Notes under the pieces: model-generated | The model's input: only the letters and a program-made list of their open reading frames with translations | Told to the model about the DNA's origin: nothing | Database searches by the model: none | Translations under genes and position numbers: made by a program | Source: Nanobdella aerobiophila | GTDB taxonomy: Archaea; Nanobdellota; Nanobdellia; Nanobdellales; Nanobdellaceae | Length of the DNA: 32,000 bases | Direction: 5' to 3' | Assembly: GCF_023169545.1 (NCBI RefSeq) | Contig: NZ_AP019769.1 | Coordinates: forward strand, 90,001 to 122,000 | Shown: piece by piece, positions 721 through 24,723 of the stretch | Layout of the letters: each line of letters opens with the position of its first letter | Position numbering within the stretch: the stretch's first letter is position 1

Positions 721-1926
721 TTATATCTTAGTATGTAAATATATAAGTGTTAATATTGATAATGTAACGATAACTCCATGAATTACACCTAAACTTAGTG
801 CAAGATTTGGTAAGCTAAATATTGGTAATAAGAAAGAATTCATTCCTGGAGCAATACCAAATATTTCATTTTCTAATAATTCGCCAGATACCAATTGGAA
901 TATTAATAAAATACCTAAAGTTATTCCTATAGATTTTTTCAATATATTAGTATTTTTTCTATTAAAAAAATAATGTATACCTAGAAAGAAAAATATAAAT
1001 GATATAATTATTCTTGTATGTAAGAGATACATTAGATAGCTATCATAAAATAAATATAAAACGCCAAAAAATATCTGTAAATTATATAAAAATAATAGTA
1101 TAATGCTATAAAATGATACAAATTTATTTTTTAATTTTTTATATATTAAATAAAATATTATATACTCATATATTGATATAAAAATCATTGATAAAGATAT
1201 ATATTTATAATATGGGTCATTTATATTTGGATGTTTTATATAAAATAATGATAAAATAATTGAATATATTAGCTGTATAAATATTATAATTTGAGTTGCA
1301 TATATAATTATTTTTTTATAATTATTTATTTTATTTAATTTTGATAAATCTATACCATTGTTTTTATTTAGATAATTATATAAAAATATAGGTATTAATG
1401 TTATTAATATTAAAAATTCAAATAAATACTCTGCTATATCTGTCTTATAAAATAAATAAGCTATATTTATAACTATTTGTGGTAATATAACATCAACATC
1501 AGTTCCAATTACATTTATTACAGTATTTATAAATAATAGGATAATAAAATAAGATAATAAGAATATATAAATTATTAATTGTTTTTTTGATATCTTTAGA
1601 TTATTTATTATTAATGATTGTCCAATAAAATACGCTAATAGATAAAAGAAAATATATAAATAAAATAATTCTGCTATAAAATTATGGAATGTATTTATTG
1701 AAAAAATTTCTAAAGGAAATAATAGATATATAATTTTATAATTATTATAAGTTGTTTTTGTATACTTTAGTAATAATAAAAGTATTGGTATATAAATTAT
1801 ACCAAATATAATATTAAATATGTTTATACCAAATAATATATAATTTTTATTCCATATCTTAATAAAAGAAAATGATAATAATATTATTAGATAATAAAAA
1901 ATAAATTTTTTATTATTGTCTACCAT
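721..1926 (-). CDS. Polytopic integral membrane protein (about 11-12 predicted TM helices), function unknown
   Basis: 401-aa ORF with an ATG start that overlaps the upstream gene by 7 nt. Almost entirely I/L/F/Y hydrophobic segments separated by short K/N loops. It has no cysteine and no motif I recognise. Confidence 0.6.
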   Translation of the reverse strand: MVDNNKKFIFYYLIILLSFSFIKIWNKNYILFGINIFNIIFGIIYIPILLLLLKYTKTTYNNYKIIYLLFPLEIFSINTFHNFIAELFYLYIFFYLLAYFIGQSLIINNLKISKKQLIIYIFLLSYFIILLFINTVINVIGTDVDVILPQIVINIAYLFYKTDIAEYLFEFLILITLIPIFLYNYLNKNNGIDLSKLNKINNYKKIIIYATQIIIFIQLIYSIILSLFYIKHPNINDPYYKYISLSMIFISIYEYIIFYLIYKKLKNKFVSFYSIILLFLYNLQIFFGVLYLFYDSYLMYLLHTRIIISFIFFFLGIHYFFNRKNTNILKKSIGITLGILLIFQLVSGELLENEIFGIAPGMNSFLLPIFSLPNLALSLGVIHGVIVTLSILTLIYLHTKI

Positions 1927-3488
1927 GTATCTAGCACTCCAACCAGATATCCGCCCAAGTTTAGTTTAGGAATTGGCAAATAAAAATAATATGTATATAA
2001 ATTTTGGTTTTTTGGTATTGGATATCCTAATGATATGCTATTTCCTTGCCCATTATATAAATATGCATTTAATTCATATACATTACCATTGCTTGTTGTA
2101 CAGAATACTCTTGGCATTGCGATTCCATTAGATCCAGGATGTGGATCCCAATATGCTGCAGATATAATTATATATGGATTATTTGGATCTCTATTAATTA
2201 TTGCCCATTTTGTTATATTAAATTCATATAATCCTGCGCTATTCTCATTTTGATTTATTTGATATACTAAAGGACATTGTTTTCCAACTATTATACCACT
2301 TACATTTTCTATATTTTGAAATACTCCTACAGGACATGTTAAGATGCCTCCATTTGTTGTAGATACTGTACAATATGGTGCTGCAGCTAAAAATATATAA
2401 TCGGGCTGTCCGGTTGAATTTAAATAAGATATATATAATCTTATAACTTCATGCCAAGGGTAATCTATATATACATCCTGACAAGATGGCGGTATATATA
2501 CTTTTCCTCTATAAAATGAACCGACTATCGAAGAACCAGAATTTATTAGACCAAGATCCTGCGCTAGTTGCGTTATATCTGTTGCAGTTTTATATATTGG
2601 TGGGTTTGGATAATAATATCCTTCGCCACTATATGCTCCGCCTACAACAATATATTGTCCATAAAAGAAAGATGGTAATGTATAGTTTGGTGCTACTGGA
2701 ACCATCCAACCATCATCAAGATCTTGAAATAATTCCCAATTACCATTCTGGCAAAATACAGATGCGTTTGTAAAATCCTCTCCAGGAAATAAGGTTGATA
2801 ATGATGTACAGAATCCACTAATTTCAGCTTCAGAGGTACAAAAATATGGGCCATATAATCCTCCCAAGCCCCATGAACCACAAGAATTATCTTCATGAAA
2901 TGGTGCAGTTGCATTTACCCAACCAGCACCATGTATATTTTCATATTCTGCTCCTTGATAAGCATATGATACGGAATATTCAGGAGAATATACAGTTTCA
3001 GTATAATCATTAATATAACTAGTATTGTAATTCCATTGATACCATTGAACTCCATTTGTATTATTTGGTGGATTTATTTCACAAGAGTCCCAATCATATA
3101 TATTTCCAGTAACTAAAAACATTTGAACGATCCATCCTGTTATAGATGGTAAATAATATATTGTTAAATTCCAGTTATTACCATATATACTATCGAAATA
3201 ATTATATAGATCCTGAGTTATATTTGTACATGTGTTATCATTTATACAATATTCATTATTTTCTGATGTAGATAAATAAGATAATAAAAATGAGTATGAT
3301 TGATTTACGCTATCATTATTAATATATGATAATAAATCTACACTATTTTGAATAGTCAATGAATATTGATTTTCTGGTATATATTTATTTGTTATATTAT
3401 TATATGTTATTATAAAATATAAAATAAAAGATAAAACTATTATTCCAGTTATAACTATAATTATTATATAATTTACTTGGCTTTTCAT
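1920..3488 (-). CDS. Large secreted or N-terminally anchored Cys-rich surface protein, orphan
   Basis: 522 aa. The N-terminus MKSQVNYIIIIVITGIIVLSFILYF is M-K-x-Q plus a hydrophobic helix. It forms an ATGA overlap with the upstream gene at 3485-3488. The mature part is rich in N/Y/G/S/C with many N-x-S/T sequons. I counted only about a dozen K+R in 522 aa. No recognisable domain. Confidence 0.65.
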   Translation of the reverse strand: MKSQVNYIIIIVITGIIVLSFILYFIITYNNITNKYIPENQYSLTIQNSVDLLSYINNDSVNQSYSFLLSYLSTSENNEYCINDNTCTNITQDLYNYFDSIYGNNWNLTIYYLPSITGWIVQMFLVTGNIYDWDSCEINPPNNTNGVQWYQWNYNTSYINDYTETVYSPEYSVSYAYQGAEYENIHGAGWVNATAPFHEDNSCGSWGLGGLYGPYFCTSEAEISGFCTSLSTLFPGEDFTNASVFCQNGNWELFQDLDDGWMVPVAPNYTLPSFFYGQYIVVGGAYSGEGYYYPNPPIYKTATDITQLAQDLGLINSGSSIVGSFYRGKVYIPPSCQDVYIDYPWHEVIRLYISYLNSTGQPDYIFLAAAPYCTVSTTNGGILTCPVGVFQNIENVSGIIVGKQCPLVYQINQNENSAGLYEFNITKWAIINRDPNNPYIIISAAYWDPHPGSNGIAMPRVFCTTSNGNVYELNAYLYNGQGNSISLGYPIPKNQNLYTYYFYLPIPKLNLGGYLVGVLDTW

Positions 3489-4342
3489 TTTATATAATAT
3501 AATATTATTATTAATAAGCCTATAATTATTATAATTACCGATAATATTGGTAATATATTATACTCATTATTATTATACTCCGTTTTAGTCAAATTTTCTT
3601 CATTATTTAAATATATATTATTTATAGAACTATTAGTCATTATCTGACTTGTCTGGTTATTATATATACATGTAAATACTCCATAACAATTTACTTCTAT
3701 ATTGTTTGGAGGTGGGCATTCTTTTAAAAATTCATTATATAATTTTTGTAAAGAATAATTATATGGGCATCTATACCAATCTCCATTAAAACTTTCATTT
3801 TCTGGGCAATAACCACATGATTGCTCTATATATAATGCAGAATATATATTATTATATTCCGTAGAATTATAATTTCCAGGTATATATGGAGGGTTAAAAC
3901 ATGGATATGGAACTTCTGAACAGGATTGAACAATCCATGGTGTATCTGAACAGCTTACTATATTATTACATGCAGATAATATAGGATATACATCTTGATA
4001 TGAGCTTTCTGGAACTAATGCTAAAGGATCTATCTCTGTTCCATTAGGATAAATACATAAGAACTGAGTTATTGTTGTATTATCTATGGTTAAATTTTGT
4101 ATTATGGAACTTAGATTATAGTGATAGCAGAAATTATATTTTTCAGGAACCTGTCCATAATAATAATTAAATGCATTAAATGTATTACCATCTACTATAC
4201 AATATTCTCCAGTTGAGTTCGCATAAAATACTCCACCTCCATATTGGCAAAATACTGCTACAGGATTTTTTAATGAATATATATTATATACAAATAATAA
4301 TGAAATTAAAAAAATTATAATATTACGATATATATGTGACAT
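3485..4342 (-). CDS. Cys-rich surface protein with DUF333-like N-terminal module and C-terminal TM anchor
   Basis: 285 aa with a Sec-type signal (MSHIYRNIIIFLISLLFVYNIYS). The next segment, KNPVAVFCQYGGGVFYANSTGEYCIVDGNTFNAFNYYYG, resembles the DUF333 pattern (NPA..yC...GG....G..C.l.dG...W.y..G). It has 14 Cys, about 11 N-x-S/T sequons and a C-terminal hydrophobic anchor (ILPILSVIIIIIGLLIIILYYIK). Confidence 0.55.
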   Translation of the reverse strand: MSHIYRNIIIFLISLLFVYNIYSLKNPVAVFCQYGGGVFYANSTGEYCIVDGNTFNAFNYYYGQVPEKYNFCYHYNLSSIIQNLTIDNTTITQFLCIYPNGTEIDPLALVPESSYQDVYPILSACNNIVSCSDTPWIVQSCSEVPYPCFNPPYIPGNYNSTEYNNIYSALYIEQSCGYCPENESFNGDWYRCPYNYSLQKLYNEFLKECPPPNNIEVNCYGVFTCIYNNQTSQIMTNSSINNIYLNNEENLTKTEYNNNEYNILPILSVIIIIIGLLIIILYYIK

Positions 4343-5831
4343 TGTTTATAGAAATAATATAATAAGGAAGGCTTTGGCCGTATGGTGTTGAATTATAAGG
4401 AACATATATATATCCATTATTCATCCAATATACTCCTCCACAGTTATATCCACTTCCAAGTACTTTTTGTACATAATAATTACAAAAATTTTGGTTTAAA
4501 AATAACTGACTGCACGATTGTATAGATATCATATTATTTGGTATAAGAAGTGGTGTTGTATCATAATAATTTGTTGTATTATATACTACTATGATGCATG
4601 CGGATTGTTGCCCCCATTCGTTTTGTATTATCCAACAACCAGGCTGATTATATTCTTCTTGGCATATATTTGAATTATCATTAAATCCTACTAATAATGT
4701 TGCATGTCCCGTTGCTTCTAGATAATAACTAGTATCTTGATTGGATAGACCACCTAAAAATCCACTTATACTTAATGGACCATAACATAGTAAATCTTGT
4801 TTTATTTGTTGGGTGCTTAAATCTCCTGATGGTGGCAGGGCTGCTAATTGTCCTCCTGGTCCTATAGCCTCTTCACTATCTAAAAATCCTGAAGCAAGAT
4901 ATTGTTCAGAATCTGGTACATAAATATTATTATTTGGTATACTATATGACTGTCCGCATACATCTCCTGGATAATTAGAAATATTTGTACTGCAGTCTGC
5001 CAGTTCTTGATAATATGTATTATAATTATTATCTGTTCCTATACCATATTCTTCTGAAAATTGTATTCCTTGATATGGTAATCCACCTAAACAACCCATT
5101 ACATCTTGGCAGTATCCTGGAGAATTTGGATTACCAACATTGCAGTTAACTGCAATTTCTGTTGGTGAAAGATACAAACTTAAATTTGGTAAATTATTAT
5201 ATATCATATAATTTGAGGCAATTGCATATGCAGCGCTCCATGCCCAGCAATCACCGCATGTACCTTGATTTCCAATGGGGGGTAAGTAACTATCTCCATT
5301 TACATCACCCCAGTTCCAAGAAGTTTGTCCTGTATAATTATATAAACAATCATTGCTTGATATTATATTATTTGAATTATTGGAATTAATTATCATATTA
5401 TACGTATTATTATCTATTAAATATTCAGATTCATTATAATTATTTGTTATATATATATGATTATTTGATTTTATAAAGTATATTTCATTTGGATATAATA
5501 AGTAATTTATTTCAGAATTATTATTATATAAGGATATATTATAATTATTAAATGTTATTGAATAATTATTGTTGTTATAATTTAATACTATTGAATTATT
5601 GGCATAATATATTATTACATCATTTGGAACACTTAATCTTATAAAATAGTTGCCTTGAAATGTGGTTATTGTATTTTCCAAATTTTGTATATTTTGGACA
5701 AAATTTTGAAATTCTATATTTTGTTGTGATGTCTTTAAATTATAAATATATATATAATATATACCTATTGCTAGTCCAACTATTACTAATATTATTCCTA
5801 CATTCAATAAATTGATTTGAACTCTCTTCAT
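4323..5831 (-). CDS. Papain-family (peptidase C1) cysteine protease with pilin-like/signal-anchor N-terminus and Asn-rich stalk
   Basis: 502 aa. The active-site block PPIGNQGTCGDCWAWSAAYAI matches the papain Q19..C22GSC25W signature (Q189, C195; the Cys195 codon is at 5247-5249). ATGHATLLVGFND supplies the His (H376) and IIQNEWG supplies the Asn of the N-S-W-G motif (N404). The N-terminus is MKRVQINLLNVGIILVIVGLAIGIYYIY. Residues about 70-160 form an N/Y/I low-complexity region. Confidence 0.8.
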   Translation of the reverse strand: MKRVQINLLNVGIILVIVGLAIGIYYIYIYNLKTSQQNIEFQNFVQNIQNLENTITTFQGNYFIRLSVPNDVIIYYANNSIVLNYNNNNYSITFNNYNISLYNNNSEINYLLYPNEIYFIKSNNHIYITNNYNESEYLIDNNTYNMIINSNNSNNIISSNDCLYNYTGQTSWNWGDVNGDSYLPPIGNQGTCGDCWAWSAAYAIASNYMIYNNLPNLSLYLSPTEIAVNCNVGNPNSPGYCQDVMGCLGGLPYQGIQFSEEYGIGTDNNYNTYYQELADCSTNISNYPGDVCGQSYSIPNNNIYVPDSEQYLASGFLDSEEAIGPGGQLAALPPSGDLSTQQIKQDLLCYGPLSISGFLGGLSNQDTSYYLEATGHATLLVGFNDNSNICQEEYNQPGCWIIQNEWGQQSACIIVVYNTTNYYDTTPLLIPNNMISIQSCSQLFLNQNFCNYYVQKVLGSGYNCGGVYWMNNGYIYVPYNSTPYGQSLPYYIISINNVTYIS

Positions 5832-5867: not shown

Positions 5868-6290
5868 TTATGTAGATGAATATATCTCTATTGAGTTTGG
5901 ATTATTTTTATATATTGTTATTTCTATATTTTCTACATTATTATTTAGGTTAGCGTATTTATATAATGTATTATTATATGATATAGTACCTTCTATTATT
6001 ATATTACAACTTGAATTGTATTTTATATATTGATTATATATATAACAGGTTACTTCATTTCCATTAGATGATATATAATTTAGGTATTTTGATATTTGAA
6101 AATTTGTTGTTATACTGGTTCCATTGTTAGCATTACATACTTCTTCAATAGAATTAAATAAATTTTGGCACTGATTTATTTGATTTGATACAAGATAGAT
6201 TTCATTATTCATATAGCTAAATTTTAAATATAAGTACATTGAAATTCCAAATCCAATTACAGTTGCAATAAGCCAGAACCATTTTTCCAT
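5868..6290 (-). CDS. Small N-terminally anchored secreted protein (minor-pilin-like), unknown function
   Basis: 140 aa. It has an N-terminal hydrophobic helix (MEKWFWLIATVIGFGISMYLYL), then an N/I/Y/S-rich domain with 4 Cys. It sits in line with the pilin-like series. Confidence 0.55.
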   Translation of the reverse strand: MEKWFWLIATVIGFGISMYLYLKFSYMNNEIYLVSNQINQCQNLFNSIEEVCNANNGTSITTNFQISKYLNYISSNGNEVTCYIYNQYIKYNSSCNIIIEGTISYNNTLYKYANLNNNVENIEITIYKNNPNSIEIYSST

Positions 6291-6322: not shown

Positions 6323-6730
6323 TTATTGTAATGATAAATATACATAATTTATATTTGAATTAATTAATATATAGTCACCTTGTTTTATATAATAATTACA
6401 ATTTTGAATCTGTACATTAGGATCTATACTTAATACATTATCTATTAATTGAGAACATGAAAAAGAATTTGTTCCATTATAATATACTAAATAACATAAT
6501 CCATTTTCTTTTTTATTATAACAAGAAATTATATCTAAAGATAATGTGTCTATAGATTGAACATTAGTTTCAACTACCGTGCTTGTACTATTAGGATGCG
6601 GAAGTGCAGTATTTATATAAGATACTAGATTACTTTTTATCATTAAGATTATACCAACGATTACTACTACTGCAATTATTCCTATAATTATTATAAATGT
6701 TAAATTTACGGGCATTTCTTGACCTTTCAT
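6323..6730 (-). CDS. Small pilin-like protein with class III-type signal peptide (MKGQ...)
   Basis: I prefer the second ATG (6730-6728) over the ORF-track start at 6736. It forms an ATGA overlap with the upstream stop (6727-6729) and gives MKGQEMPVNLTFIIIIGIIAVVVIV, a K-G-Q prepilin-like N-terminus. It has 4 Cys and the core motif DIISCYNKKENGLCYLVY, shared with the next gene upstream. Confidence 0.6.
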   Translation of the reverse strand: MKGQEMPVNLTFIIIIGIIAVVVIVGIILMIKSNLVSYINTALPHPNSTSTVVETNVQSIDTLSLDIISCYNKKENGLCYLVYYNGTNSFSCSQLIDNVLSIDPNVQIQNCNYYIKQGDYILINSNINYVYLSLQ

Positions 6731-7206
6731 TGCCATAATATTATATTTGTATTATTATAAATTATAAATATACTTTGATATGGTGTAAAATTTAATTGAT
6801 TATTTTCGTAATGAAATAATAAATTATTTGTATTAAAATTACTATATCTATTTAATATATATAATATATTTGTGGAATTAATGGATAAATTTTCATCAAT
6901 ATATACATCATAACAAACATTAAATAGGTTGTTTGTATTTATATTTTTATTATAGCAACTAATCACTAATCCAGCAATTGCATTTTCTATATAATCTTCT
7001 GTTTGGTTATTAAATTCTATGGTTTGCGTTTCTGGGTAGTATTTTAAACATGATGGAGAAAATGAGTCTGTGGATACTATACTTTCGCAATAATATTGTT
7101 TAGAGTTTAGAAAAAATTTATCATATATTATATATAAAAATATACTTATAGAGATTATTGCTACAATAATAATAAATGCCTGATCTATAGCAATATCATT
7201 TTTCAT
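6727..7206 (-). CDS. Small pilin-like/N-terminally anchored protein, paralog of 6323-6730
   Basis: 159 aa with the N-terminus MKNDIAIDQAFIIIVAIISISIFLYII. It forms an ATGA overlap with the upstream gene (7203-7206). It has 4 Cys and the motif LVISCYNKNINTNNLFNVCYDVY, parallel to ISCYNK..CYLVY in the neighbouring gene. Confidence 0.6.
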   Translation of the reverse strand: MKNDIAIDQAFIIIVAIISISIFLYIIYDKFFLNSKQYYCESIVSTDSFSPSCLKYYPETQTIEFNNQTEDYIENAIAGLVISCYNKNINTNNLFNVCYDVYIDENLSINSTNILYILNRYSNFNTNNLLFHYENNQLNFTPYQSIFIIYNNTNIILWQ

Positions 7207-7481
7207 ATATAACTTATATTTCCTTCATATATATATATTATTCTATTTCCTTCTGGAATTAGTAAATTATTTATTGTACAGTTTTGAGTTAAATATACTT
7301 TTATTTCTATTGTTTTATAATAGCTTTGGTTATATAAATTATTTAGTTCTTGGCAATTTATAGATCTTATATTATTATTTGTATCATTTACTTTATATAT
7401 ATAATAAAAAGAAAAACTAGCTGCTGCAATAATTAAGATAAAAGATATTAATAGTTCATATTGAATATTTTGAGCTTTCAT
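7203..7481 (-). CDS. Small pilin-like protein
   Basis: 92 aa with the N-terminus MKAQNIQYELLISFILIIAAASFSFYYIY: M-K-A-Q, an acidic residue, then a hydrophobic helix, as in class III signal peptides. It forms an ATGA overlap with the platform gene (7478-7481). Confidence 0.6.
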   Translation of the reverse strand: MKAQNIQYELLISFILIIAAASFSFYYIYKVNDTNNNIRSINCQELNNLYNQSYYKTIEIKVYLTQNCTINNLLIPEGNRIIYIYEGNISYI

Positions 7482-9445
7482 ATTGATATATTTGTTGGTA
7501 AATAAGGCCCGAAAACAGAAAAAATTACTATAATACCAATTATTGAAAATACAGTATATATTATAGTTCCTAATAATAAATTTTTTCCTATATAATAATC
7601 TATCATTGTATTATCAAATCCATATTTTATTCCAGCAGTCATATATGATGTTATAATTATAAATTCTATGAAAAATATACCAATTATAGCTTCAAAATAT
7701 GTTGGTGGTATTAAATTATATAAATTAAAAGTTTGTACTATTAATTGTTCTATCCCTGCAGAACCTGATATACCAATGGATTGATCAATTAGTTGGAAGA
7801 AGTATGCTAAAGCAAATAACATAGATATTATCCCATTATTAAAGACGGTTACTAGTGCAGATATAAATGGTATTAAATTTTTTGATGTAACATCTAACAT
7901 ACTTATTATTTCATTTAGAATCTTTCTTACATTATTTTTTATATTTATTACATTTTCTAGGTTATAGGAAATATTATATGTTATTTTTGATAATATCTCT
8001 GGACCTTTTGATATGGAATATATTATTAGTTGTAAACTTTCTCTTACTAGTTTTGATGGATAATAATTTATAGATCCATTATTAATATTGAATATAGAAT
8101 TTATTAAGTCGAAACCTTTTCTCAAATTATATATTGTTATCTTTAGGAAATTCTCCATTACCCCACTAGACTTTATTATCTTATAATTTTGATATGTTTT
8201 TTGTATTACAATTTCCATTGGATAACCATCTTCTAATAATGAGGCAAATTCATAAGTTACTATTGGAAATTCATCTTCTATTTCTTCTATTTGTTGTATT
8301 TTTTTTACTTTCTGATATGAATTAAGATAGAAATATGATCCTATACCAAGACCCAATCCTAAAGGTATTGTTAAAACAGTTAATATATTGTATAGGGCTC
8401 TATCCTGATATATTATTGATAAATATTGGCTATCTCCTGGTGGTATATATAATAATTGAATTGCTAAATTTATTATATGATAGAATCCTATAATGGATAT
8501 AGAAAGGAATATTAATGATATAAAGATTATTGGTAAATATTTACCATTTATCTTTATAGTTCCATTTCTTGGTAGGTCTTTTGATAATGATAAATCAGGT
8601 GTAGAAAAAGCAAAAGGGCTTTTAGACAATAAATTTTGGGCTATTAAGAATACTATTACTGGAAGAATAATTATATAACTAAATGCTATAAAGTAAAAAC
8701 TTACTGTATTTAATATAAATATTGATAATAATGGTAGCATAATTAATGTTATCATTGGCATCATTACTAAAAATGATACAATTGCAGTTGTTGGCTCTTT
8801 TAAATTTTCTACATATTCTTCTGATCTTTGTAAGGATTTTTTTAATGTCCATTCTAATATCCTATCAACTAATTTATTTATATCATCTATAGAACTTTTA
8901 TAGTTTATATTAATTAAATGGGTGATTGCATATACAAATTCAGGATTTATATAATACCATCTATATTGATAATATTCCAAAGCATCTTCTATTTTATTAA
9001 ATCTGTTTGTTTCTAAGTCATATATTATTTTTTTAAAATCATCTGCTAATATCCCATTCATATAATATGCTACATATTGTATTGCTTTTTCTAAATTTGG
9101 ATTTCTTTTAATATATAATGATAAATACAATAAGATCCAGACAGATTCAGAAGTTGCTTTAATCTTTACTATCTGAGTATAAAATATTGGATAATATATA
9201 AGATAAAAATTTAATATTAATAATGATATAAATAAAGAAAATGCGAATTGAAATGATATGATACTAAATATAAAATAAGTTATTATAGAAATTATAAATA
9301 AAGATATATTTGATGATAATATATTATTAGGATTTGTATTTAGCCTATTTAACCATAAATGAAATTTATAAAAATCATATATCTTCTTTGGAGCCTTTAT
9401 TTTTATTATTATAAATTTATTATAAAAATTTTCAAAAAAAGACAT
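7478..9445 (-). CDS. Putative type IV filament platform protein (FlaJ/TadC/PilC-like, two T2SSF-type repeats)
   Basis: 655 aa. The architecture is two TM helices, a soluble helical domain of about 130 aa (..IKRNPNLEKAIQYVAYYMNGILADDFKKIIYDLETNRFNKIEDALEYY..) and about four TM helices. A second soluble helical domain follows (..EDEFPIVTYEFASLLEDGYPMEIVIQKTY...KGFDLINSIF..), then three TM helices. That duplicated layout is the hallmark of T2SSF-domain platform proteins. The gene sits 2 nt downstream of a pilin-like gene. The call rests on architecture, not on measured sequence identity. Confidence 0.55.
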   Translation of the reverse strand: MSFFENFYNKFIIIKIKAPKKIYDFYKFHLWLNRLNTNPNNILSSNISLFIISIITYFIFSIISFQFAFSLFISLLILNFYLIYYPIFYTQIVKIKATSESVWILLYLSLYIKRNPNLEKAIQYVAYYMNGILADDFKKIIYDLETNRFNKIEDALEYYQYRWYYINPEFVYAITHLININYKSSIDDINKLVDRILEWTLKKSLQRSEEYVENLKEPTTAIVSFLVMMPMITLIMLPLLSIFILNTVSFYFIAFSYIIILPVIVFLIAQNLLSKSPFAFSTPDLSLSKDLPRNGTIKINGKYLPIIFISLIFLSISIIGFYHIINLAIQLLYIPPGDSQYLSIIYQDRALYNILTVLTIPLGLGLGIGSYFYLNSYQKVKKIQQIEEIEDEFPIVTYEFASLLEDGYPMEIVIQKTYQNYKIIKSSGVMENFLKITIYNLRKGFDLINSIFNINNGSINYYPSKLVRESLQLIIYSISKGPEILSKITYNISYNLENVINIKNNVRKILNEIISMLDVTSKNLIPFISALVTVFNNGIISMLFALAYFFQLIDQSIGISGSAGIEQLIVQTFNLYNLIPPTYFEAIIGIFFIEFIIITSYMTAGIKYGFDNTMIDYYIGKNLLLGTIIYTVFSIIGIIVIFSVFGPYLPTNISI

Positions 9446-9447
9446 AC

Positions 9448-10197
9448 TTATACGCTATTCAATTCATTATACTGGAAATCTAATAATGCTTGGCATAAAG
9501 GTGTCTGATCTTGATTTATATTTATTGATGGGCATATTCCATTTACATATATTTCTCCATTTTGTACAATTATGCTTAGATTTCCTGCGCAATAATTTTG
9601 ATTATAGTAATTTACTACATTTATTAAAGCTCCGAACACCTGGTTAGTTATCCAGGTTGGTATATTTCCATTACATGTAGATGGACCTGGATATAATATT
9701 GTGGAAGGTTGAGATATATATAATTCTACATTTCCATTTGAGACATTTATTTCTGTAGATGATGCATATTGACCAAATACATATTTTGTTGCTTGATTTG
9801 CATTATAATCTAGTGTATTTATATAATATTGACATTCTATATACATACAATCTAGAGGAGTTATGGAATATCCTTGATAACTACATGATTGACCATTATT
9901 AGAATTTCCATATAACTGATTTACTATTGTACATGGTACAGAATTTTCACATAAGTAATATCCAGGACTATTTTCAGTGTATCCATTTCCTATACTTACA
10001 TATTGGCTACAATAATCTATAGGATTAGAACATGCACTAGTGCATGTTGATACAGCCTGTTGAATTTCAGTATTTGATATAGTTCCAATTTTTGATGCTT
10101 GTTGAGTAAATAATTTTATTACTATTACTGCTACCACTAACATAATTAATATTACGAATATAAGTTCCACTGCCATGTCAATACCTCTTTTTTTCAT
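9448..10197 (-). CDS. Cys-rich pilin-like protein with class III (prepilin-type) signal peptide
   Basis: The ORF-track start at 10209 is a TTG; the first ATG is at 10197-10195. That gives MKKRGIDMAVELIFVILIMLVVAVIVIKLF: a basic stretch, G, an acidic residue, then a long hydrophobic helix. This compares well with archaeal pilins of the KKGQIAMELGIL type. The mature domain has more than 10 Cys and many sequons. Confidence 0.65.
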   Translation of the reverse strand: MKKRGIDMAVELIFVILIMLVVAVIVIKLFTQQASKIGTISNTEIQQAVSTCTSACSNPIDYCSQYVSIGNGYTENSPGYYLCENSVPCTIVNQLYGNSNNGQSCSYQGYSITPLDCMYIECQYYINTLDYNANQATKYVFGQYASSTEINVSNGNVELYISQPSTILYPGPSTCNGNIPTWITNQVFGALINVVNYYNQNYCAGNLSIIVQNGEIYVNGICPSININQDQTPLCQALLDFQYNELNSV

Positions 10198-10220
10198 ATA
10201 AATTAACAATTCTTTATAAT

Positions 10221-10631
10221 TTATAAATATTTAATTATTATGTATAGATCTTTATCTTCTTTTAATAAATTTATGATATCCCTTTTAATATCTATAGAAC
10301 TTTTATTTGAATATATTGCTAATGTTCTATCATCTATAAAATTACTTTTCCTTATAATAATACTGTTTTCTGATTTAAAACTTAAATTTTTTGACCCATA
10401 TGCAATAATTTTATCAATTAAATTATCTACTTTTATTATTATCTTTATCTTTCCTTCTGATAATAAATATTCTTTCAAATCTTCCGGAATTTCACTTGCC
10501 GAAAAATTCGCATTTATACCTATAATGCAATCACCTCTCTCTGTTAAAAAATCGTCTTTTGTAACCTCTAGAGTGGATTTGTGGGTTGCCTTTATTAATC
10601 TATTTCCTTTTGCTTTTATTTCAAATTTCAT
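10221..10631 (-). CDS. Small conserved archaeal protein, DUF371-like (tentative)
   Basis: 136 aa, soluble. The N-terminal block KATHKSTLEVTKDDFLTERGDCIIGINA matches my recollection of the DUF371 signature (..H.tT.E.Tk...LT.rGDCIigv.a). Its start overlaps the ATP-grasp gene stop by 11 nt. Confidence 0.45.
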   Translation of the reverse strand: MKFEIKAKGNRLIKATHKSTLEVTKDDFLTERGDCIIGINANFSASEIPEDLKEYLLSEGKIKIIIKVDNLIDKIIAYGSKNLSFKSENSIIIRKSNFIDDRTLAIYSNKSSIDIKRDIINLLKEDKDLYIIIKYL

Positions 10632-11460
10632 TTAAGTAATCTAAAATTCCTTTAACTAGATTTTTATTTAAATATTTTTCAAATCCTTCAAACTGGAATA
10701 TATTATGTATGTCAATTAAATAATAAGTATTTTCTTTTAATAATAGATCAAAAGCAAATATCTGTAGATCCATTTTTTCAGAAATTTTATATGATATTTC
10801 TTCTATTTCTTTATCAATTTTATATTCTTTTCCTCTACCGCCCTGGCTTATATTTGCTTTATAAGATTCGTTATTTATTCTTTGCATGGCACCGAAAGGT
10901 TTTCCTATGAAAATTACTCTTATGTCTTTTTCATAAGGTATATATTCTTGAAAAATTAGATGTTTTATATCCCTTTTATTTTCCAAATATTCGTCTAAAA
11001 AGTTATATAATTCTTCTTCATTATTTATCTTAAATACGAATTCACCCCTATGAATGAATTGATGTTTTACCATTATTGGAAAACTTAGCTTTTCGAGGAT
11101 GAATCTTATGTTTTTCACTGAATATATTTTATAAAATTTCGGTATCTTTATATATTTTCTTAATTTATCATAAAAAAATGTTTTACTTGCTATTTGGTTA
11201 TTTATATGTAGTTTATTTATGACATTTTTTCCATTATCATTTAAATAATTTGCTAAAATATTGGAATCATATGTGAATGTCATTCCAAGATAGAAATAAA
11301 AATTATCATATTCTAATATCTTTGTATTTTCATAAGGATATACTAGGTATTTATATGCCTCTACTATATCTATATTATTGTAACCACTTATTTCATCGTA
11401 AAATCTTTTTATTCTATAATCTTCTAAATTTTGTCTTATAAGAATCGCTATTTTTTTCAT
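10621..11460 (-). CDS. ATP-grasp ligase, RimK/LysX-like
   Basis: 279 aa. Typical RimK-type blocks are present: FPIMVKHQFIHRGEFVFKI, LIFQEYIPYEKDIRVIFIGKPFGAMQRI and SYKANISQGGRGKEY. The substrate cannot be assigned. Confidence 0.6.
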   Translation of the reverse strand: MKKIAILIRQNLEDYRIKRFYDEISGYNNIDIVEAYKYLVYPYENTKILEYDNFYFYLGMTFTYDSNILANYLNDNGKNVINKLHINNQIASKTFFYDKLRKYIKIPKFYKIYSVKNIRFILEKLSFPIMVKHQFIHRGEFVFKINNEEELYNFLDEYLENKRDIKHLIFQEYIPYEKDIRVIFIGKPFGAMQRINNESYKANISQGGRGKEYKIDKEIEEISYKISEKMDLQIFAFDLLLKENTYYLIDIHNIFQFEGFEKYLNKNLVKGILDYLNEI

Positions 11461-21626: not shown

Positions 21627-22994
21627 ATGTTTCCTGTATATGATATAGATAGAGCTGTCTTTGCATCTTCACTTGCTGTTCATATTATAATATCATCATT
21701 AAGTATAGGTATGCCATTTGCATTGGGTACTATAGAACTGTACGGAGTATTAAAAAAAGATTCTAAAATAAATTATCTAGTAAAAAGGTTGAGTACTATT
21801 ATTTTAGCTTTATTTGCAATTGGTACCTTATCTGGAACTATAGTAGCTGTAGAAATGGCAACTTTATTTCCAAAATTTATGCAAATAATATCAAATACTG
21901 CTATAATATCTTTATATATAGAAGTAGGTGCATTTTTTATAGAATCTTTATTCTTAGGTTTATATCTATATTCTTGGAAGAAGTATGGAAATTCAATATG
22001 GCATCCAATATTTATGTATTTAGTAGGATTCTTTGCTGCAATGTCTGGAGTATTAATAATAACATTAAACTCTTTTATGAATTATCCTGTAGGGGTACAA
22101 TATATTAATGGACAAATAATTGATACAGATCCTTATGCAATATTTTTTACACCTATACAATTTATTGAAACAGGTCATGGAGTTTTAGCATCATTAACAT
22201 TTGGAGTTTCTTTTTTTATTGCTATAATAGCATATCATATATTAAGAGAAAAAGATCTAAATAAAATAGATATATACGGAAAAATTATGAAAATAGTCAC
22301 TCCAATATTTTTTATATCAATATTAGTTACAGGATTATATGGAATAAGTTCTATAGATACTTTATCTGTATATCAACCAACTAAGTATGCAGTCTTAGAA
22401 GCAAATGTTAATGGAAATATCTCGCATGCTTCTGAAAATCTGTTTGGATTTATTAGTCCTAATTATACATTAGAAAATTATATATCAGTACCAGATTTAC
22501 AAAGTTTATTATTACATGAGCATTTTAATCCAAATACTGTTGTTCCAGGTATTTTACCAAATGAATCTAATATAGCATCTCCTGCTGATATTACTGTATC
22601 ACATAATTCTTTTGATATTATGGCAATTCTAGGTTTTATAATATTCCTAGGAGCTGGATATATGCTATTATCTCAAATATTATCTAGAAAAGATAATAAT
22701 AAAGATAAAAAATTTACATTAAATCCTAGATATACATTTTATTTGAATAAATTAATATTGTATGCTTCTATAATATTAGCTTTATTTTCTATTATAGCTG
22801 TAGAAACAGGATGGATAGCTGCAGAAGTAGGTAGACAGCCATGGACAATATATAATATATTATTAACAAAGGATGCAGCGAATCTTAATCCCAGTGTTGT
22901 TCCAGTAGCAATTACATTTCAGATAATATATATTATATTATTCTTTTCAACATTATGGGCCATAAAGAAATATTTCATTGATAGATTAGAATGA
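21627..22994 (+). CDS. cydA: Cytochrome bd-type quinol oxidase subunit I
   Basis: 455 aa, polytopic. The hallmark GWIAAEVGRQPWTIY is present. There is an N-terminal His in TM1 (SLAVHIIIS), FFIESLFLGLYLY (conserved Glu) and ETGHGVLAS. Confidence 0.88.
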   Translation: MFPVYDIDRAVFASSLAVHIIISSLSIGMPFALGTIELYGVLKKDSKINYLVKRLSTIILALFAIGTLSGTIVAVEMATLFPKFMQIISNTAIISLYIEVGAFFIESLFLGLYLYSWKKYGNSIWHPIFMYLVGFFAAMSGVLIITLNSFMNYPVGVQYINGQIIDTDPYAIFFTPIQFIETGHGVLASLTFGVSFFIAIIAYHILREKDLNKIDIYGKIMKIVTPIFFISILVTGLYGISSIDTLSVYQPTKYAVLEANVNGNISHASENLFGFISPNYTLENYISVPDLQSLLLHEHFNPNTVVPGILPNESNIASPADITVSHNSFDIMAILGFIIFLGAGYMLLSQILSRKDNNKDKKFTLNPRYTFYLNKLILYASIILALFSIIAVETGWIAAEVGRQPWTIYNILLTKDAANLNPSVVPVAITFQIIYIILFFSTLWAIKKYFIDRLE

Positions 22995-23893
22995 TAAATT
23001 ATTTATTATATTTTTTTGTATTATTGGGCGCAATTATAGCAACTATAATATTATTTTTATGGTTGGAACTTGGATTATCTTGTTCTTATTTTATTAATAA
23101 GGATTTATTTAAGAAATATGAAAATTTGTTTTTATCATCATGGGAGATTACTGGAACTACAATTGTATTTTTAGTTGTACAATTTGAAGCAATAGCTCCT
23201 AATCTGTTAATTCCGGTTGCTTATTCTTTTTATATATTTATATTTTTAATATTATTTTTCTTTATATTTAGGAATATAAATATAGGAATATTTGAAGGAT
23301 TAACATTTAAGAATAAATATAATAAAAGTAGTTTAATAATTTATACAATAGCAACTTTATTTTTAGGAATAATAATGATTACATTGGTAAGTGCAGGTAT
23401 TACTGGTATAGGTATAATAGGATTATCGGGTAATATAATAAATTGGAATATATATATTATATTTAATTATTTTAATTTATTATTATTGATATCTACAATC
23501 TTATCTTCTCTTGGATTTTTAGGATATATATTTGGAATAGACAGTTATAAAAGATATTCTATAATAGGTTATATATTATTTATTATTGATCTAGCCTTAT
23601 TTACTAGATCTATATATGTTTATTACTTAATTATTCCTTTAGTATTATTTATATTAATGTTACTTGTTAAGGTTAGAATATATATACAAAGAATAATATA
23701 TGTATTATCACATTACTTTACTTCCATTATTGTAAGTATAATGATATTTCCTTATCTATTTAAAATTATTAATATACAAAATATAATTACTCAAAGTAAT
23801 ATATTATTATCTGCAGAATTTGTAGTGTCCATATTTATTATAGTTGCAATATTTTCTATATATTTATTTGAGATAAAATCTATATTAGATTAA
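22991..23893 (+). CDS. cydB: Cytochrome bd-type oxidase subunit II (divergent, short)
   Basis: 300 aa with about 8-9 TM helices. It forms an ATGA overlap with the cydA stop (22991-22994). The assignment rests on position and topology; I cannot align its sequence to CydB by eye. Confidence 0.55.
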   Translation: MINYLLYFFVLLGAIIATIILFLWLELGLSCSYFINKDLFKKYENLFLSSWEITGTTIVFLVVQFEAIAPNLLIPVAYSFYIFIFLILFFFIFRNINIGIFEGLTFKNKYNKSSLIIYTIATLFLGIIMITLVSAGITGIGIIGLSGNIINWNIYIIFNYFNLLLLISTILSSLGFLGYIFGIDSYKRYSIIGYILFIIDLALFTRSIYVYYLIIPLVLFILMLLVKVRIYIQRIIYVLSHYFTSIIVSIMIFPYLFKIINIQNIITQSNILLSAEFVVSIFIIVAIFSIYLFEIKSILD

Positions 23894-24723
23894 GAATCGA
23901 ATACTTTTTTATATATTTCTTTTAATTGGTTGGGTACGACATGAGTATATATTTGAGTTATGGATAAAGAACTATGACCTAATAATTCTTGTATATATCT
24001 TATATCTATTCCCCTAGATAATAATGTTGTTGCTAATGAATGTCTTAATACATGTGGAGTAACTTTTTTATTTATTCCTGCTTTTATTGCTGTTCTTTTG
24101 ATAATTCTCTCTACCTGTCTTGATGATAGTGGAAATATTATATTGGAATCTAAATCTTCTATATAATCTTTTATTCTATTTAATAACTCCTTTGGTATGG
24201 GTACTATTCTTTCTTTGCCCCCTTTTCCTAGAACTTTTACTAATCCCTCTTCAAATATTATATCATCTTTCTTTATTTTTACTAGTTCAGAAACTCTAAC
24301 ACCAGTATAGAATAAAAATTCAATTATTAGTCTATTCCTATAACTTTCGGCAGCATTGATTAGCCTTTGAAATTCTTCTAATGTTATAAATTTTGGTAAT
24401 CTTTTATCTACTTTTGGGGCTTTAATTTGTTTAGCCAGATTTTCATTATCCAGAAACCTTAATAAAGATGCTATACCCCTAATATATAATCTTAATGAGT
24501 TAGAATCTAGTTTTTTATTTATCTTTTCATCTGCTAAAAATCTAAATATTAAATTTTTATCTATATATGTATTTATGGTAAATTGATCTATATCATTTAA
24601 ATTTAAATACTTTTTTATAAAATTTAGGAAGGTTTTTACAATTATATTATATGTTTTTATTGTATTTTTTGATTTTCCTTGGATCTCCAACCAAACTTTG
24701 TATTGTTCTAATATGCTCTCCAT
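23890..24723 (-). CDS. xerA: Tyrosine recombinase, XerA/XerC/XerD family
   Basis: 277 aa. It has an N-terminal SAM-like core-binding domain and the catalytic blocks YTGVRVSEL (Arg), HVLRHSLAT (H-x-x-R) and LGHSSLSITQIYTHV (His and the Tyr nucleophile). Confidence 0.88.
   Translation of the reverse strand: MESILEQYKVWLEIQGKSKNTIKTYNIIVKTFLNFIKKYLNLNDIDQFTINTYIDKNLIFRFLADEKINKKLDSNSLRLYIRGIASLLRFLDNENLAKQIKAPKVDKRLPKFITLEEFQRLINAAESYRNRLIIEFLFYTGVRVSELVKIKKDDIIFEEGLVKVLGKGGKERIVPIPKELLNRIKDYIEDLDSNIIFPLSSRQVERIIKRTAIKAGINKKVTPHVLRHSLATTLLSRGIDIRYIQELLGHSSLSITQIYTHVVPNQLKEIYKKVFDS

What the first reader, a model, noticed from the sequence alone, without database searches (positions are those of the whole stretch)
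4323..5831. Papain-family cysteine protease on a pilin-like N-terminus inside the filament operon
The catalytic set of peptidase family C1 is intact:
- Q189 and C195 in GNQGTCGDCWAWS;
- H376 in TGHATLLVG;
- N404 in QNEWG.

The enzyme domain maps to about 4572-5339.

It is preceded by MKRVQINLLNVGIILVIVGLAIG and an Asn/Tyr/Ile low-complexity segment of about 90 aa with many N-x-S/T sequons. That segment looks like a stalk rather than a papain I29 propeptide.

To my knowledge C1 peptidases are uncommon in archaea. I have not seen one fused to a prepilin-like leader and translationally embedded among pilin genes.

Possible roles are a protease displayed on a filament or the cell surface to digest a host S-layer or envelope, or to harvest peptides. 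The C-terminal region of about 80 aa (residues 420-502, 5 Cys) has no obvious homology.
Basis: partly seen in the sequence, partly recalled or inferred. Interest (0 to 1): 0.8.

Follow-up and report, generated by a model that had tools for sequence, protein, structure and literature searches.

The report
Papain-type protease on pilin-like carrier
A tiny host-dependent archaeon encodes an intact papain-family protease tethered to a small anchor shaped like a pilus subunit, inside a pilus-assembly gene cluster, which makes it a plausible but unproven tool for cutting its host's protein coat.

Summary
The ORF (4323-5831, minus strand, 502 aa) is real. It carries a genuine C1 (papain-family) peptidase domain: Pfam PF00112 scores 63.7 bits, and Q189, C195, H376, N404 and W406 align with the catalytic residues of dipeptidyl peptidase I and are conserved in about 30 orthologs.

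- Residues 1-135 are not a low-complexity stalk. They are the best-conserved part of the protein and model confidently as a 56-residue helix plus a beta domain, the outline of a pilin.
- The true variable tether is residues 136-161.
- The number of glycosylation sequons is what chance gives.
- C1 peptidases are not rare in archaea.

The gene lies in a 10-gene membrane and surface cluster, with two unrelated cytoplasmic genes upstream. The arrangement is syntenic in all 11 sampled Nanopusillaceae loci with enough sequence. The cluster holds a TadC/FlaJ-type platform and five small proteins with one N-terminal helix each.

In strain YN1 the protease domain sits on a different small carrier (the homolog of the upstream gene), and the N-module is a separate 141-aa gene. 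Carrier and enzyme are therefore separable.

Membership as a true type IV pilin is unproven. The signal motif is non-canonical, no pilin family matches, and Foldseek found no match.

The gene is already annotated "Peptidase C1A"; the architecture and context appear undescribed.

A DUF333-like partner gene is newly noticed.

The parts
4323..5831 (-). Whole gene: 502-aa N-module + tether + C1A peptidase (stop codon 4323-4325)
   Evidence: ORF listing. About 30 full-length orthologs at 40-48% identity.
5427..5831 (-). N-module, residues 1-135: the carrier with a pilin-like outline
   Evidence: AlphaFold2 pLDDT 88, helix 2-57 plus strands 62-129. Mean pairwise identity 85%. Occurs as a stand-alone 141-142-aa protein in YN1 and one other lineage. 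No Pfam or PDB sequence match.
5742..5816 (-). Hydrophobic N-terminal half of the helix (residues 6-30), preceded by MKRVQ, which holds the [KR]-x-Q motif
   Evidence: Kyte-Doolittle maximum 2.55, the only hydrophobic segment in the protein. Identity 83% across the family. The motif is shared with three other cluster genes.
5349..5426 (-). Variable N/Q/G-rich tether, residues 136-161
   Evidence: Length 26-75 aa in the 29 same-architecture homologs (a 62-aa P/S-rich linker in the YN1-type P0030); poorly conserved.
4326..5348 (-). C1A peptidase domain with its C-terminal extension, residues 162-502; 14 non-catalytic Cys
   Evidence: PF00112 at 63.7 bits. PDB profile hits to dipeptidyl peptidase I, falcipain, cathepsin L and papain. 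Cys positions.
5265..5267 (-). Q189 codon (oxyanion-hole Gln)
   Evidence: Invariant in 31 sequences. Aligned to the Gln of the QxxCGSC motif of 1jqp.
5247..5249 (-). C195 codon (catalytic Cys)
   Evidence: Invariant. Aligned to the catalytic Cys of dipeptidyl peptidase I.
4704..4706 (-). H376 codon (catalytic His)
   Evidence: Invariant. Aligned to the NHA motif of dipeptidyl peptidase I.
4620..4622 (-). N404 codon (Asn of the triad); W406 follows
   Evidence: N404 is kept in at least 90% of sequences and W406 is invariant. Aligned to KNSWG.
4440..4604 (-). Lineage-specific insertion, residues 410-464, between the NxWG motif and the terminal strands
   Evidence: Absent from P0061 and from the Altiarchaeales enzyme. 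Modelled at high pLDDT as strands plus a helical hairpin in an otherwise poor full-length model.
3485..4342 (-). g285: signal peptide, DUF333-like domain, C-terminal membrane anchor; start overlaps the protease gene by 20 nt
   Evidence: BLASTP E 3e-10 to the DUF333 protein encoded directly after the Altiarchaeales C1 gene.
5868..6290 (-). g140: small protein with one N-terminal helix; the alternative carrier of the protease domain in YN1 and P0030
   Evidence: L014 ORF 9161-10900 is a g140 homolog fused to the C1 domain. The N-terminus of P0030 is of the g140 type.
6323..6736 (-). g137: small pilin-like protein, MAMKG|QE N-terminus
   Evidence: Weak GspG hit, E 0.014.
6727..7206 (-). g159: small protein with one N-terminal helix
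   Evidence: hhalign to g137 gives 37% probability over 107 columns.
7203..7481 (-). g92: small pilin-like protein, MKA|QN N-terminus
   Evidence: Weak hit to a class III signal family, E 0.054.
7478..9445 (-). g655: TadC/FlaJ-type membrane platform
   Evidence: 4 of 19 homologs hit PF00482 T2SSF, best E 2.4e-8. The N. acidilobi ortholog Nps_00520 is assigned to arCOG01814, named 'Pilus assembly protein TadC, subclade 4F'.
9448..10197 (-). g253: 249-aa Cys-rich protein with a canonical class III-type start MKKRG|IDMAVE. The conserved start is the ATG at 10197, not the TTG at 10209.
1920..3488 (-). g522: large Cys-rich surface protein with an MKSQ start and one N-terminal helix
   Evidence: hhalign of the N-termini of the C1 N-module and g522 gives 62% probability.
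721..1926 (-). g401: polytopic membrane protein that ends the cluster
   Evidence: Syntenic in all loci. Four invariant His and no invariant Asp.

Best explanation
**What it is.** The gene encodes an extracellular, catalytically competent papain-family (C1A) cysteine peptidase. A short flexible N/Q/G-rich tether grafts it onto a 135-residue carrier module. The carrier has the outline of a type IV pilin: a short basic N-terminus, a 25-residue hydrophobic helix that continues as an amphipathic helix to residue 57, then a small beta domain.

**How I think it works.** I propose the carrier is handled like a minor subunit (a "modular pilin", or a bindosome-type surface subunit). The handling machinery would be the TadC-type platform and the five other single-helix proteins encoded around it. 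This would hold the protease outside the symbiont's membrane at the host contact site. There it would cut host surface (S-layer) protein, and perhaps supply peptides. The overlapping DUF333-like membrane-anchored gene product is a dedicated partner, possibly an inhibitor or regulator.

**Shown:**
- the peptidase family and its catalytic residues;
- conservation of the architecture and of synteny;
- separability and swapping of the carrier;
- the TadC-family neighbour.

**Inferred:**
- processing of the N-terminus and assembly into a filament or surface array;
- the substrate;
- the role of the partner gene.
For: **Peptidase**
- PF00112 at 63.7 bits.
- The catalytic Q, C, H and N align to dipeptidyl peptidase I and are conserved in 31 sequences. 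They are also intact in YN1, P0057 and P0061.
- 14 non-catalytic Cys and a single N-terminal helix with MKR on the cytoplasmic side fit an outward-facing enzyme.

**Carrier**
- AlphaFold2 pLDDT 88, helix 2-57 plus a beta domain.
- It is the most conserved region of the protein, including the membrane helix.
- The tether varies from 26 to 75 aa among the 29 same-architecture homologs.
- The carrier exists alone as a 141-aa gene in YN1, where the protease domain is fused to the g140 homolog instead. Two different small single-helix proteins of the same cluster therefore serve as carrier.

**Context**
- A 10-gene membrane and surface cluster, with RimK and DUF371 genes upstream, is syntenic in 11 Nanopusillaceae loci; a twelfth locus ends inside the protease gene.
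- Stop and start codons overlap along the cluster.
- g655 belongs to the TadC/FlaJ family.
- g253 has a canonical KRG| start.
- A [KR]-x-Q start occurs in only 4 of 32 window proteins. All four are cluster genes, the protease among them.

**Literature**
- Modular pilins, including predicted peptidase modules, are known in bacteria (PMC8179133).
- Non-pilin proteins with class III signals are assembled by a pilus-like system in Sulfolobus (PMC3387779).
- Relatives of this organism breach the host S-layer at an attachment organelle whose molecular identity is unknown (PMC11420986 and PMC11104419).
Against: - The N-terminus lacks the G or A at position -1 that defines archaeal class III signals. 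It is V here and Y, N, D or L in most orthologs.
- No pilin family matches the N-module.
- Foldseek against PDB found nothing: best E 0.044, TM below 0.3.
- hhalign shows only membrane-helix similarity to the neighbours.
- The neighbours themselves give only noise-level pilin hits.
- There is no secretion ATPase in the cluster.
- No prepilin peptidase is annotated in N. acidilobi, and Makarova et al. found none in two nanoarchaea.
- None of the ten cluster proteins (nor the adjacent DUF371 gene) was detected in the N. acidilobi shotgun proteome.
- A long helix followed by a beta domain is also what a plain membrane-anchored stalk would look like.
- The C1 fold could not be confirmed by structure. 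The full-length model is poor (pLDDT 55) and its fold search was meaningless.
Confidence: 0.45

Rival explanations
1. It is a plain membrane-anchored ectoprotease. The N-terminal helix is an uncleaved signal anchor and the helix plus beta module is a rigid stalk. The enzyme stays on the symbiont's own membrane. It shares an operon with surface and pilus genes only because all act at the cell surface.
For: - There is no canonical class III cleavage motif.
- No pilin family or fold match was found.
- Wurch et al. list the ortholog with one transmembrane domain and no signal peptide.
- No prepilin peptidase is annotated in N. acidilobi.
- The closest outside relative (Altiarchaeales) uses an ordinary Sec signal and a long T-rich stalk.
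Against: - A simple anchor need not be the most conserved part of the protein.
- A simple anchor would not be expected to persist as an independent 141-aa gene after losing the enzyme.
- The enzyme was re-attached to another small single-helix protein of the same cluster in YN1.
- The [KR]-x-Q start is shared specifically with cluster neighbours.
- An enzyme tethered about 160 residues from the membrane would act inside the symbiont's own envelope space (inference).
Confidence: 0.33
2. It is a maturation or processing protease for the cluster's own products. It would trim or release the neighbouring surface proteins, such as the C-terminally anchored DUF333-like g285, the large g522, or the small subunits, much as pilus operons in Gram-positive bacteria carry their own cysteine transpeptidase.
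For: - Tight translational coupling with g285, and conservation of the C1 + DUF333 pair in an Altiarchaeales genome.
- The stoichiometric operon position among structural genes.
Against: - No evidence of cleavage sites.
- C1A enzymes are typically broad endo- or exopeptidases rather than site-specific processing enzymes (established knowledge of the family).
- The Altiarchaeales pair occurs without the pilin-like genes. The pair's function therefore does not need them.
Confidence: 0.1
3. It is a secreted soluble protease. The N-terminus is a Sec signal that is cleaved, and the enzyme is released for extracellular protein digestion.
For: It has a basic N-terminus followed by a hydrophobic stretch. 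N. acidilobi has signal peptidase I annotated.
Against: - The hydrophobic stretch is about 25 residues, with no small-x-small site after it.
- It is predicted to be continuous with a helix running to residue 57.
- It is 83% conserved, unlike typical signal peptides.
- The 105 residues that follow are strongly conserved and fold with the helix.
Confidence: 0.07

Closest known systems
Peptidase family C1, subfamily C1A (papain, cathepsins L and C, falcipain-2)
   Same: - Pfam PF00112 is above its cutoff.
- The Gln-Cys-His-Asn(-Trp) catalytic set is present in the canonical order and motifs.
- The disulfide-rich extracellular domain is typical.
- The best solved matches are dipeptidyl peptidase I, falcipain-2, cathepsin L and papain.
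   Different: - No I29 propeptide.
- At most about 30% identity to any enzyme outside the Nanopusillaceae and Altiarchaeales group.
- A roughly 55-residue insertion after the NxWG motif.
- An extra conserved Cys pair around His376 (C390, C399).
- The N-terminal carrier module.
Bacterial modular type IV pilins (Streptococcus sanguinis PilB and PilC; predicted pilin-S74 and pilin-M26 peptidase architectures; Raynaud et al. 2021, PMC8179133)
   Same: A small N-terminal carrier with a roughly 50-residue helix and a beta head, then a short linker, then a bulky functional module. It is encoded among pilin-like genes and a platform protein.
   Different: - Those proteins carry the IPR012902 class III signal with Gly at -1 and Glu5; this one does not.
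- This case is archaeal.
- The module is a C1A peptidase, which that survey does not name among its predicted peptidase modules (only S74 and M26).
- Incorporation into a filament is untested.
Sulfolobus bindosome (sugar-binding proteins with class III signal peptides, assembled by the Bas pilus-like system; PMC3387779, PMC3047682)
   Same: A functional, non-structural surface protein carries a pilin-type N-terminus. It depends, by inference here, on a platform protein and small pilin-like proteins encoded nearby.
   Different: - The cargo is an enzyme, not a binding protein.
- Bindosome substrates have canonical PibD sites.
- No ATPase lies in this cluster.
Altiarchaeales C1 + DUF333 gene pair (L018, contig CAVVMY010000031.1)
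   Same: - It is the closest outside relative of the catalytic domain: 35% identity, with the same 'SxxCQxxYxxxGCWIxxNxWG' and 'NGYxYxPY' motifs.
- It is followed by an overlapping gene with a DUF333 domain homologous to g285.
   Different: - It has an ordinary Sec signal and long T-rich linkers, and the C1 domain sits at the C-terminus of a 730-aa protein.
- There are no pilin-like neighbours.
- The DUF333 protein lacks the C-terminal anchor architecture seen in g285.
Myxococcus Kil Tad pilus with interchangeable minor-pilin tips used for contact-dependent killing (PMC12075869)
   Same: A Tad or T4P-type machine whose minor subunits expose variable effector domains towards another cell. The carrier and effector combinations are interchangeable.
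   Different: - It is bacterial and experimentally shown.
- Its tips are multi-subunit complexes with no C1 peptidase.
- Here the relation to a filament is only inferred.

Membership tests
Peptidase family C1 (papain family), subfamily C1A | Significant match to the family profile (PF00112) above the curated cutoff | tested here: met
   63.7 bits against a cutoff of 20.7, E 3.3e-17. All 30 homologs carry PF00112.
Peptidase family C1 (papain family), subfamily C1A | Catalytic Cys and His, with the oxyanion Gln and the orienting Asn, in the order Q-C-H-N and aligned to those of a solved enzyme | tested here: met
   Q189, C195, H376 and N404 align to the QxxCGSC, NHA and KNSWG motifs of dipeptidyl peptidase I. 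Q189, C195, H376 and W406 are invariant and N404 is kept in at least 90% of 31 sequences.
Peptidase family C1 (papain family), subfamily C1A | Two-lobed papain fold with the triad superposable on papain | tested here: inconclusive
   The full-length AlphaFold2 model is poor (pLDDT 55, L-domain below 50). Foldseek with it gave only meaningless hits. No further prediction was available.
Peptidase family C1 (papain family), subfamily C1A | I29-type inhibitory propeptide (typical of eukaryotic C1A, not required in prokaryotes) | tested here: not met
   No Pfam hit other than PF00112 at E up to 1. The region upstream of the domain is the carrier module plus a variable tether.
Peptidase family C1 (papain family), subfamily C1A | Thiol-dependent, E-64-sensitive proteolytic activity | not testable with these tools
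   Needs expression and an enzyme assay.
Type IV pilin / archaeal class III signal peptide protein | Class III signal: a short basic leader ending in [KR]-[GA], cleaved before a hydrophobic stretch of about 20 residues | tested here: not met
   The basic leader and the 25-residue hydrophobic stretch are present. Position -1 is V here and Y, N, D or L in most orthologs, with G in only one or two. The shared [KR]-x-Q motif hints at a relaxed or different site but proves nothing.
Type IV pilin / archaeal class III signal peptide protein | Lollipop architecture: an N-terminal helix of about 50 residues, hydrophobic in its first half, packed on a beta-sheet head | tested here: met
   AlphaFold2 model of residues 1-135: pLDDT 88, helix 2-57, strands 62-129. 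This is a predicted outline only.
Type IV pilin / archaeal class III signal peptide protein | Sequence or fold similarity to known pilins or archaellins | tested here: not met
Type IV pilin / archaeal class III signal peptide protein | Genetic association with type IV filament machinery (platform protein, ATPase, prepilin peptidase) | tested here: inconclusive
   A TadC/FlaJ-type platform lies in the same cluster. No ATPase or prepilin peptidase is in the cluster, and none of the latter is annotated in N. acidilobi.
Type IV pilin / archaeal class III signal peptide protein | Processing by a prepilin peptidase and incorporation into a filament | not testable with these tools
   Needs N-terminal mass spectrometry and localisation in a co-culture.
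Modular pilins (pilin module + linker + functional module) | A separable N-terminal carrier joined by a short linker to an independent functional domain | tested here: met
   The carrier exists alone (P0058 = L014:11745-12170; P0059). The C1 domain sits on another carrier in YN1 and P0030. The linker is variable.
DUF333 (PF03891) for the partner gene g285 | Profile match above the cutoff | tested here: inconclusive
   The g285 family scores only E 0.004-0.05, below the cutoff. It is homologous by BLAST (E 3e-10) to a bona fide DUF333 protein (53.6 bits) in the same position next to the Altiarchaeales C1 gene.

The most novel reading that the evidence does not exclude
This conserved cluster (TadC-type platform, five small single-helix subunits, the carrier-borne C1A protease, the DUF333 partner and two further membrane or surface proteins) encodes part of the attachment organelle recently seen by cryo-tomography in Nanobdella aerobiophila and strain YN1. 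The pilin-like proteins would build the roughly 7-nm tube or portal. The protease would be the tool that opens the host S-layer so that the host membrane can protrude into the symbiont's cone.
Probability: 0.15. Interest if true: 0.85.

Novelty: new variant of a known kind. Interest (0 to 1): 0.6.

Why it matters
Nanoarchaeota and their relatives depend on hosts that are covered by a crystalline protein S-layer. Two 2024 cryo-tomography papers state that how the S-layer is passed, and what the attachment organelle is made of, are unknown.

This locus is conserved in cultivable strains (N. acidilobi, YN1, probably Nanobdella). It joins a pilus-type platform, candidate subunits and an extracellular cysteine protease, so it gives a concrete and inhibitable (E-64) candidate to test.

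It would also be the first archaeal example, and the first C1A example, of an enzyme grafted on a pilin-like carrier. [quoted passage not shown]

If the carrier is merely a membrane stalk, the finding shrinks to an ordinary surface protease with a lineage-specific anchor.

Tried and rejected
1. **Structural confirmation of the C1 fold.** The full-length AlphaFold2 model from 31 close homologs was poor, and Foldseek with it was meaningless.
3. **Sequence homology of the N-module.**
   - hhalign to g140, g137, g159, g92, g253, g522 and g285 showed only membrane-helix similarity.
   - A profile search against 1.84 billion representatives found only 7 hits, six of them in this family and one a weak repeat match (P0062).
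   - Pfam and PDB gave nothing.
4. **Curated-family support for calling the five small neighbours pilins.** Only scattered noise-level hits to GspG, ComGD and a class III signal family appeared.
5. **g401 as a hidden prepilin peptidase.** Rejected: it has four invariant His and no invariant Asp.
6. **N-glycosylation enrichment.** Rejected: the sequon count is at chance level.
7. **Exact-sequence look-up of the window protein.** It is not on record. Only the TadC homolog is, in Logan run DRR261008.
8. **Horizontal origin of the C1 domain.** This was not resolved. The nearest outside relatives are an Altiarchaeales enzyme (35%) and Syntrophobacteraceae enzymes (about 30%). No phylogeny was attempted on such distant sequences.
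9. **Literature on DUF333 and C1.** Nothing relevant was found; the one apparent hit was DUF3335.
10. **My recalled FlaFind regular expression.** It matched none of the proteins, not even the canonical-looking g253. I did not rely on it.


Full report
**The object.** The ORF at 4323..5831 on the minus strand encodes 502 aa. The window is about 25% G+C. It also carries split archaeal RNA polymerase genes, ribosomal protein genes, FtsZ and a cytochrome bd subunit. The closest relatives of its proteins are in Nanopusillaceae: Ca. Nanobsidianus stetteri, Ca. Nanopusillus acidilobi and strain YN1. The exact protease sequence is not on record. The neighbouring 655-aa protein is 100% identical to one on a contig from the DDBJ run DRR261008.

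**The peptidase claim holds.**
- Pfam PF00112 scores 63.7 bits against a cutoff of 20.7.
- Single-sequence and profile searches of PDB sequences return only C1 enzymes. Dipeptidyl peptidase I is best, followed by falcipain-2, cathepsin L and papain.
- The printed alignments put Q189 and C195 on QxxCGSC, H376 on NHA, and N404 and W406 on KNSWG. The residue numbering was checked directly.
- In an alignment of 31 family members, Q189, C195, H376 and W406 are invariant and N404 is kept in at least 90%. More distant members (P0057, P0061, the YN1 protein) also keep them.
- Fourteen further cysteines fit a disulfide-rich extracellular enzyme.
- I could not confirm the fold by structure. The full-length model was poor in the L-domain and its fold search was noise.

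**The N-terminal 135 residues are not a low-complexity stalk.**
- They are the most conserved part of the family: 85% mean pairwise identity, against 76% for the protease core and 60% for the C-terminal part. The hydrophobic helix alone is 83% identical.
- Modelled on their own, they give pLDDT 88, with one helix from residue 2 to 57 followed by eight or nine strands.
- The variable, N/Q/G-rich tether is residues 136-161. It ranges from 26 to 75 residues among the 29 same-architecture homologs.
- The sequon count is what shuffling gives.

**The C-terminal region is not a separate domain.** It keeps a conserved motif (GVYWMNNGYIYVPY here). In the shorter relatives P0061 and the Altiarchaeales enzyme this motif follows the NxWG motif almost directly. 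From my memory of the papain sequence, it corresponds to the GYIRI strand, which I mark as recollection. Residues 410-464 are a lineage-specific insertion.

**Carrier and enzyme are separable.** A profile of the N-module against 1.84 billion representative proteins finds only seven hits. Four are longer proteins with the C1 domain, one is a 66-aa fragment (P0060), one is a weak repeat match in a 3300-aa protein (P0062), and two are stand-alone proteins of 141 and 142 aa. The 141-aa protein is encoded in the complete genome of strain YN1 at L014:11745-12170. In that genome the C1 domain is fused instead to the homolog of the upstream small gene g140, through an extra beta-rich segment and a Pro/Ser linker (ORF 9161-10900). 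P0030 has the same g140-type N-terminus. Two different small single-helix proteins of one cluster can therefore carry the enzyme, and the original carrier persists without it. This is the strongest argument that the N-module is more than a membrane anchor.

**The gene neighbourhood is conserved.**
- On the minus strand the order is RimK, DUF371, g253, g655, g92, g159, g137, g140, the C1 gene, g285, g522, g401. Most stop and start codons overlap.
- RimK and DUF371 are cytoplasmic proteins that I take to be unrelated.
- The other ten genes, the membrane and surface cluster, keep the same order in 11 Nanopusillaceae loci. A twelfth locus (L013) ends inside the C1 gene, and L011 begins only at g253.
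- g655 is a divergent TadC/FlaJ platform. Four of 19 distant homologs hit PF00482, with best E 2.4e-8.
- Wurch et al. assign its N. acidilobi ortholog to arCOG01814. Makarova et al. name that group "Pilus assembly protein TadC, subclade 4F". The same paper says the cognate pilins of that system could not be identified in nanoarchaea, and that two nanoarchaea lack a recognisable prepilin peptidase.
- g253 starts with a canonical KRG|IDMAVE.
- g92, g137, g522 and the protease all start with [KR]-x-Q just before their single hydrophobic helix. Only these four of the 32 window proteins do so. The chance probability is about 1e-5, for a motif chosen after seeing the data.

**Limits of the pilin reading.**
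- Position -1 is variable, and a G or A there defines archaeal class III signals (PMC3387779).
- No pilin family matches the N-module or, convincingly, the neighbours.
- hhalign shows only membrane-helix similarity.
- Foldseek finds no solved pilin, and more sensitive fold libraries were unavailable.
- Membership as a type IV pilin is therefore not established. "Works like a modular pilin" is an inference from architecture, carrier swapping and context.

**A conserved partner gene.**
- The closest catalytic-domain relative outside the family is an Altiarchaeales protein (L018, 730 aa). It has a Sec-type signal, T-rich linkers and a C-terminal C1 domain.
- The gene that overlaps its stop codon is a DUF333 protein (53.6 bits).
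- That protein is homologous to the N-terminal domain of g285, the gene that overlaps the stop of the window's protease. Support: BLASTP E 3e-10, reciprocal hits to seven Nanopusillaceae loci, and sub-threshold DUF333 scores.
- None of about 40 other distant C1 loci shows this pairing.
- A C1 + DUF333 two-gene cassette therefore predates the pilin-like fusion. In Nanopusillaceae the Sec signal was replaced by the carrier.
- DUF333 has no known function or solved structure. An inhibitor or regulator role is my guess, by analogy with co-transcribed protease-inhibitor pairs.

**What is known and what is new.**
- The orthologs are already named "Peptidase C1A subfamily" in Nst1 and N. acidilobi (arCOG03611). 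They are listed with one transmembrane domain and were not detected in the proteome.
- C1A peptidases are reported in all major archaeal lineages, DPANN included. Multidomain forms were left unanalysed (PMC10380794).
- Modular pilins, including predicted S74 and M26 peptidase modules, are described for bacteria only (PMC8179133).
- I found no paper that discusses this architecture or cluster.
- Cryo-tomography of N. aerobiophila and YN1 shows a cone, a portal through which the host membrane passes the host S-layer, and a 7-nm tube. The components are unidentified.
- Linking this cluster to that organelle is speculation. I give it about 15%.

**Verdict.** My best explanation (0.45) is a surface-displayed C1A protease on a pilin-like, interchangeable carrier that is handled by the adjacent TadC-type system and aimed at host surface protein. 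The main rival (0.33) is a simple membrane-anchored ectoprotease. I rate it a new variant of a known kind, with interest 0.6.

Noticed in passing
window 3485-4342 (-); L018:10614-11258: g285, which overlaps the protease gene, has a DUF333-like domain. That domain is homologous to the gene overlapping the closest outside C1 peptidase, in an Altiarchaeales genome. A C1 + DUF333 two-gene cassette is thus conserved across two archaeal phyla. The function of DUF333 is unknown.
   Followed up: partly
L014:9161-12701 (Nanoarchaeota archaeon YN1, AP031373): The locus is rearranged. It reads: g140 homolog fused to the C1 domain, then g285, then a stand-alone N-module (141 aa), then a shorter g285 paralog (172 aa). 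This looks like a tandem duplication of the protease-partner pair followed by two deletions.
   Followed up: partly
window 30027-31640 (+): A 537-aa protein starts MRS|ISPIIATILIIV and matches Pfam Pilin_N (PF07790) at 24.0 bits, just under the 25.2 cutoff. It is a second large protein with a pilin-type N-terminus in the same window.
   Followed up: no
window 721-1926 (-): g401, the polytopic membrane protein that closes the cluster, has four invariant histidines (H303, H318, H383, H398) and no invariant aspartate. It is therefore not a GxGD prepilin peptidase. It may bind heme or a metal.
   Followed up: partly
window 21627-23893 (+): Cytochrome bd oxidase subunit I (PF01654, E 6.5e-86) is followed by an overlapping 300-aa membrane ORF with no family hit, possibly subunit II. 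Jarett et al. flagged the bd oxidase as fast-evolving in Nanoarchaeota.
   Followed up: no
window 23890-24723 (-): A XerC/D-type tyrosine recombinase (Phage_integrase, E 1e-43) lies next to the bd oxidase genes.
   Followed up: no
window 9448-10209 (-): The mechanical ORF starts at a TTG (MLIYMKKRG...). All orthologs start at MK(K/R)RG, so the real start is probably the ATG at 10197.
   Followed up: yes
N. acidilobi annotation (PMC4935971, Supplementary Data 1): No prepilin peptidase (A24, FlaK or PibD) is annotated in the symbiont, although archaellum genes are, and the host has one. How class III-type signals are processed in these organisms is unexplained.
   Followed up: partly
P0062 (3300 aa): A giant protein matches residues 65-108 of the N-module profile in seven stretches (E 9.7e-7). 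This may be a repeated beta unit or a composition effect.
   Followed up: no
window 6323-7206 (-): g137 and g159 align over 107 columns in hhalign (probability 37%), so they may be diverged paralogs.
   Followed up: no
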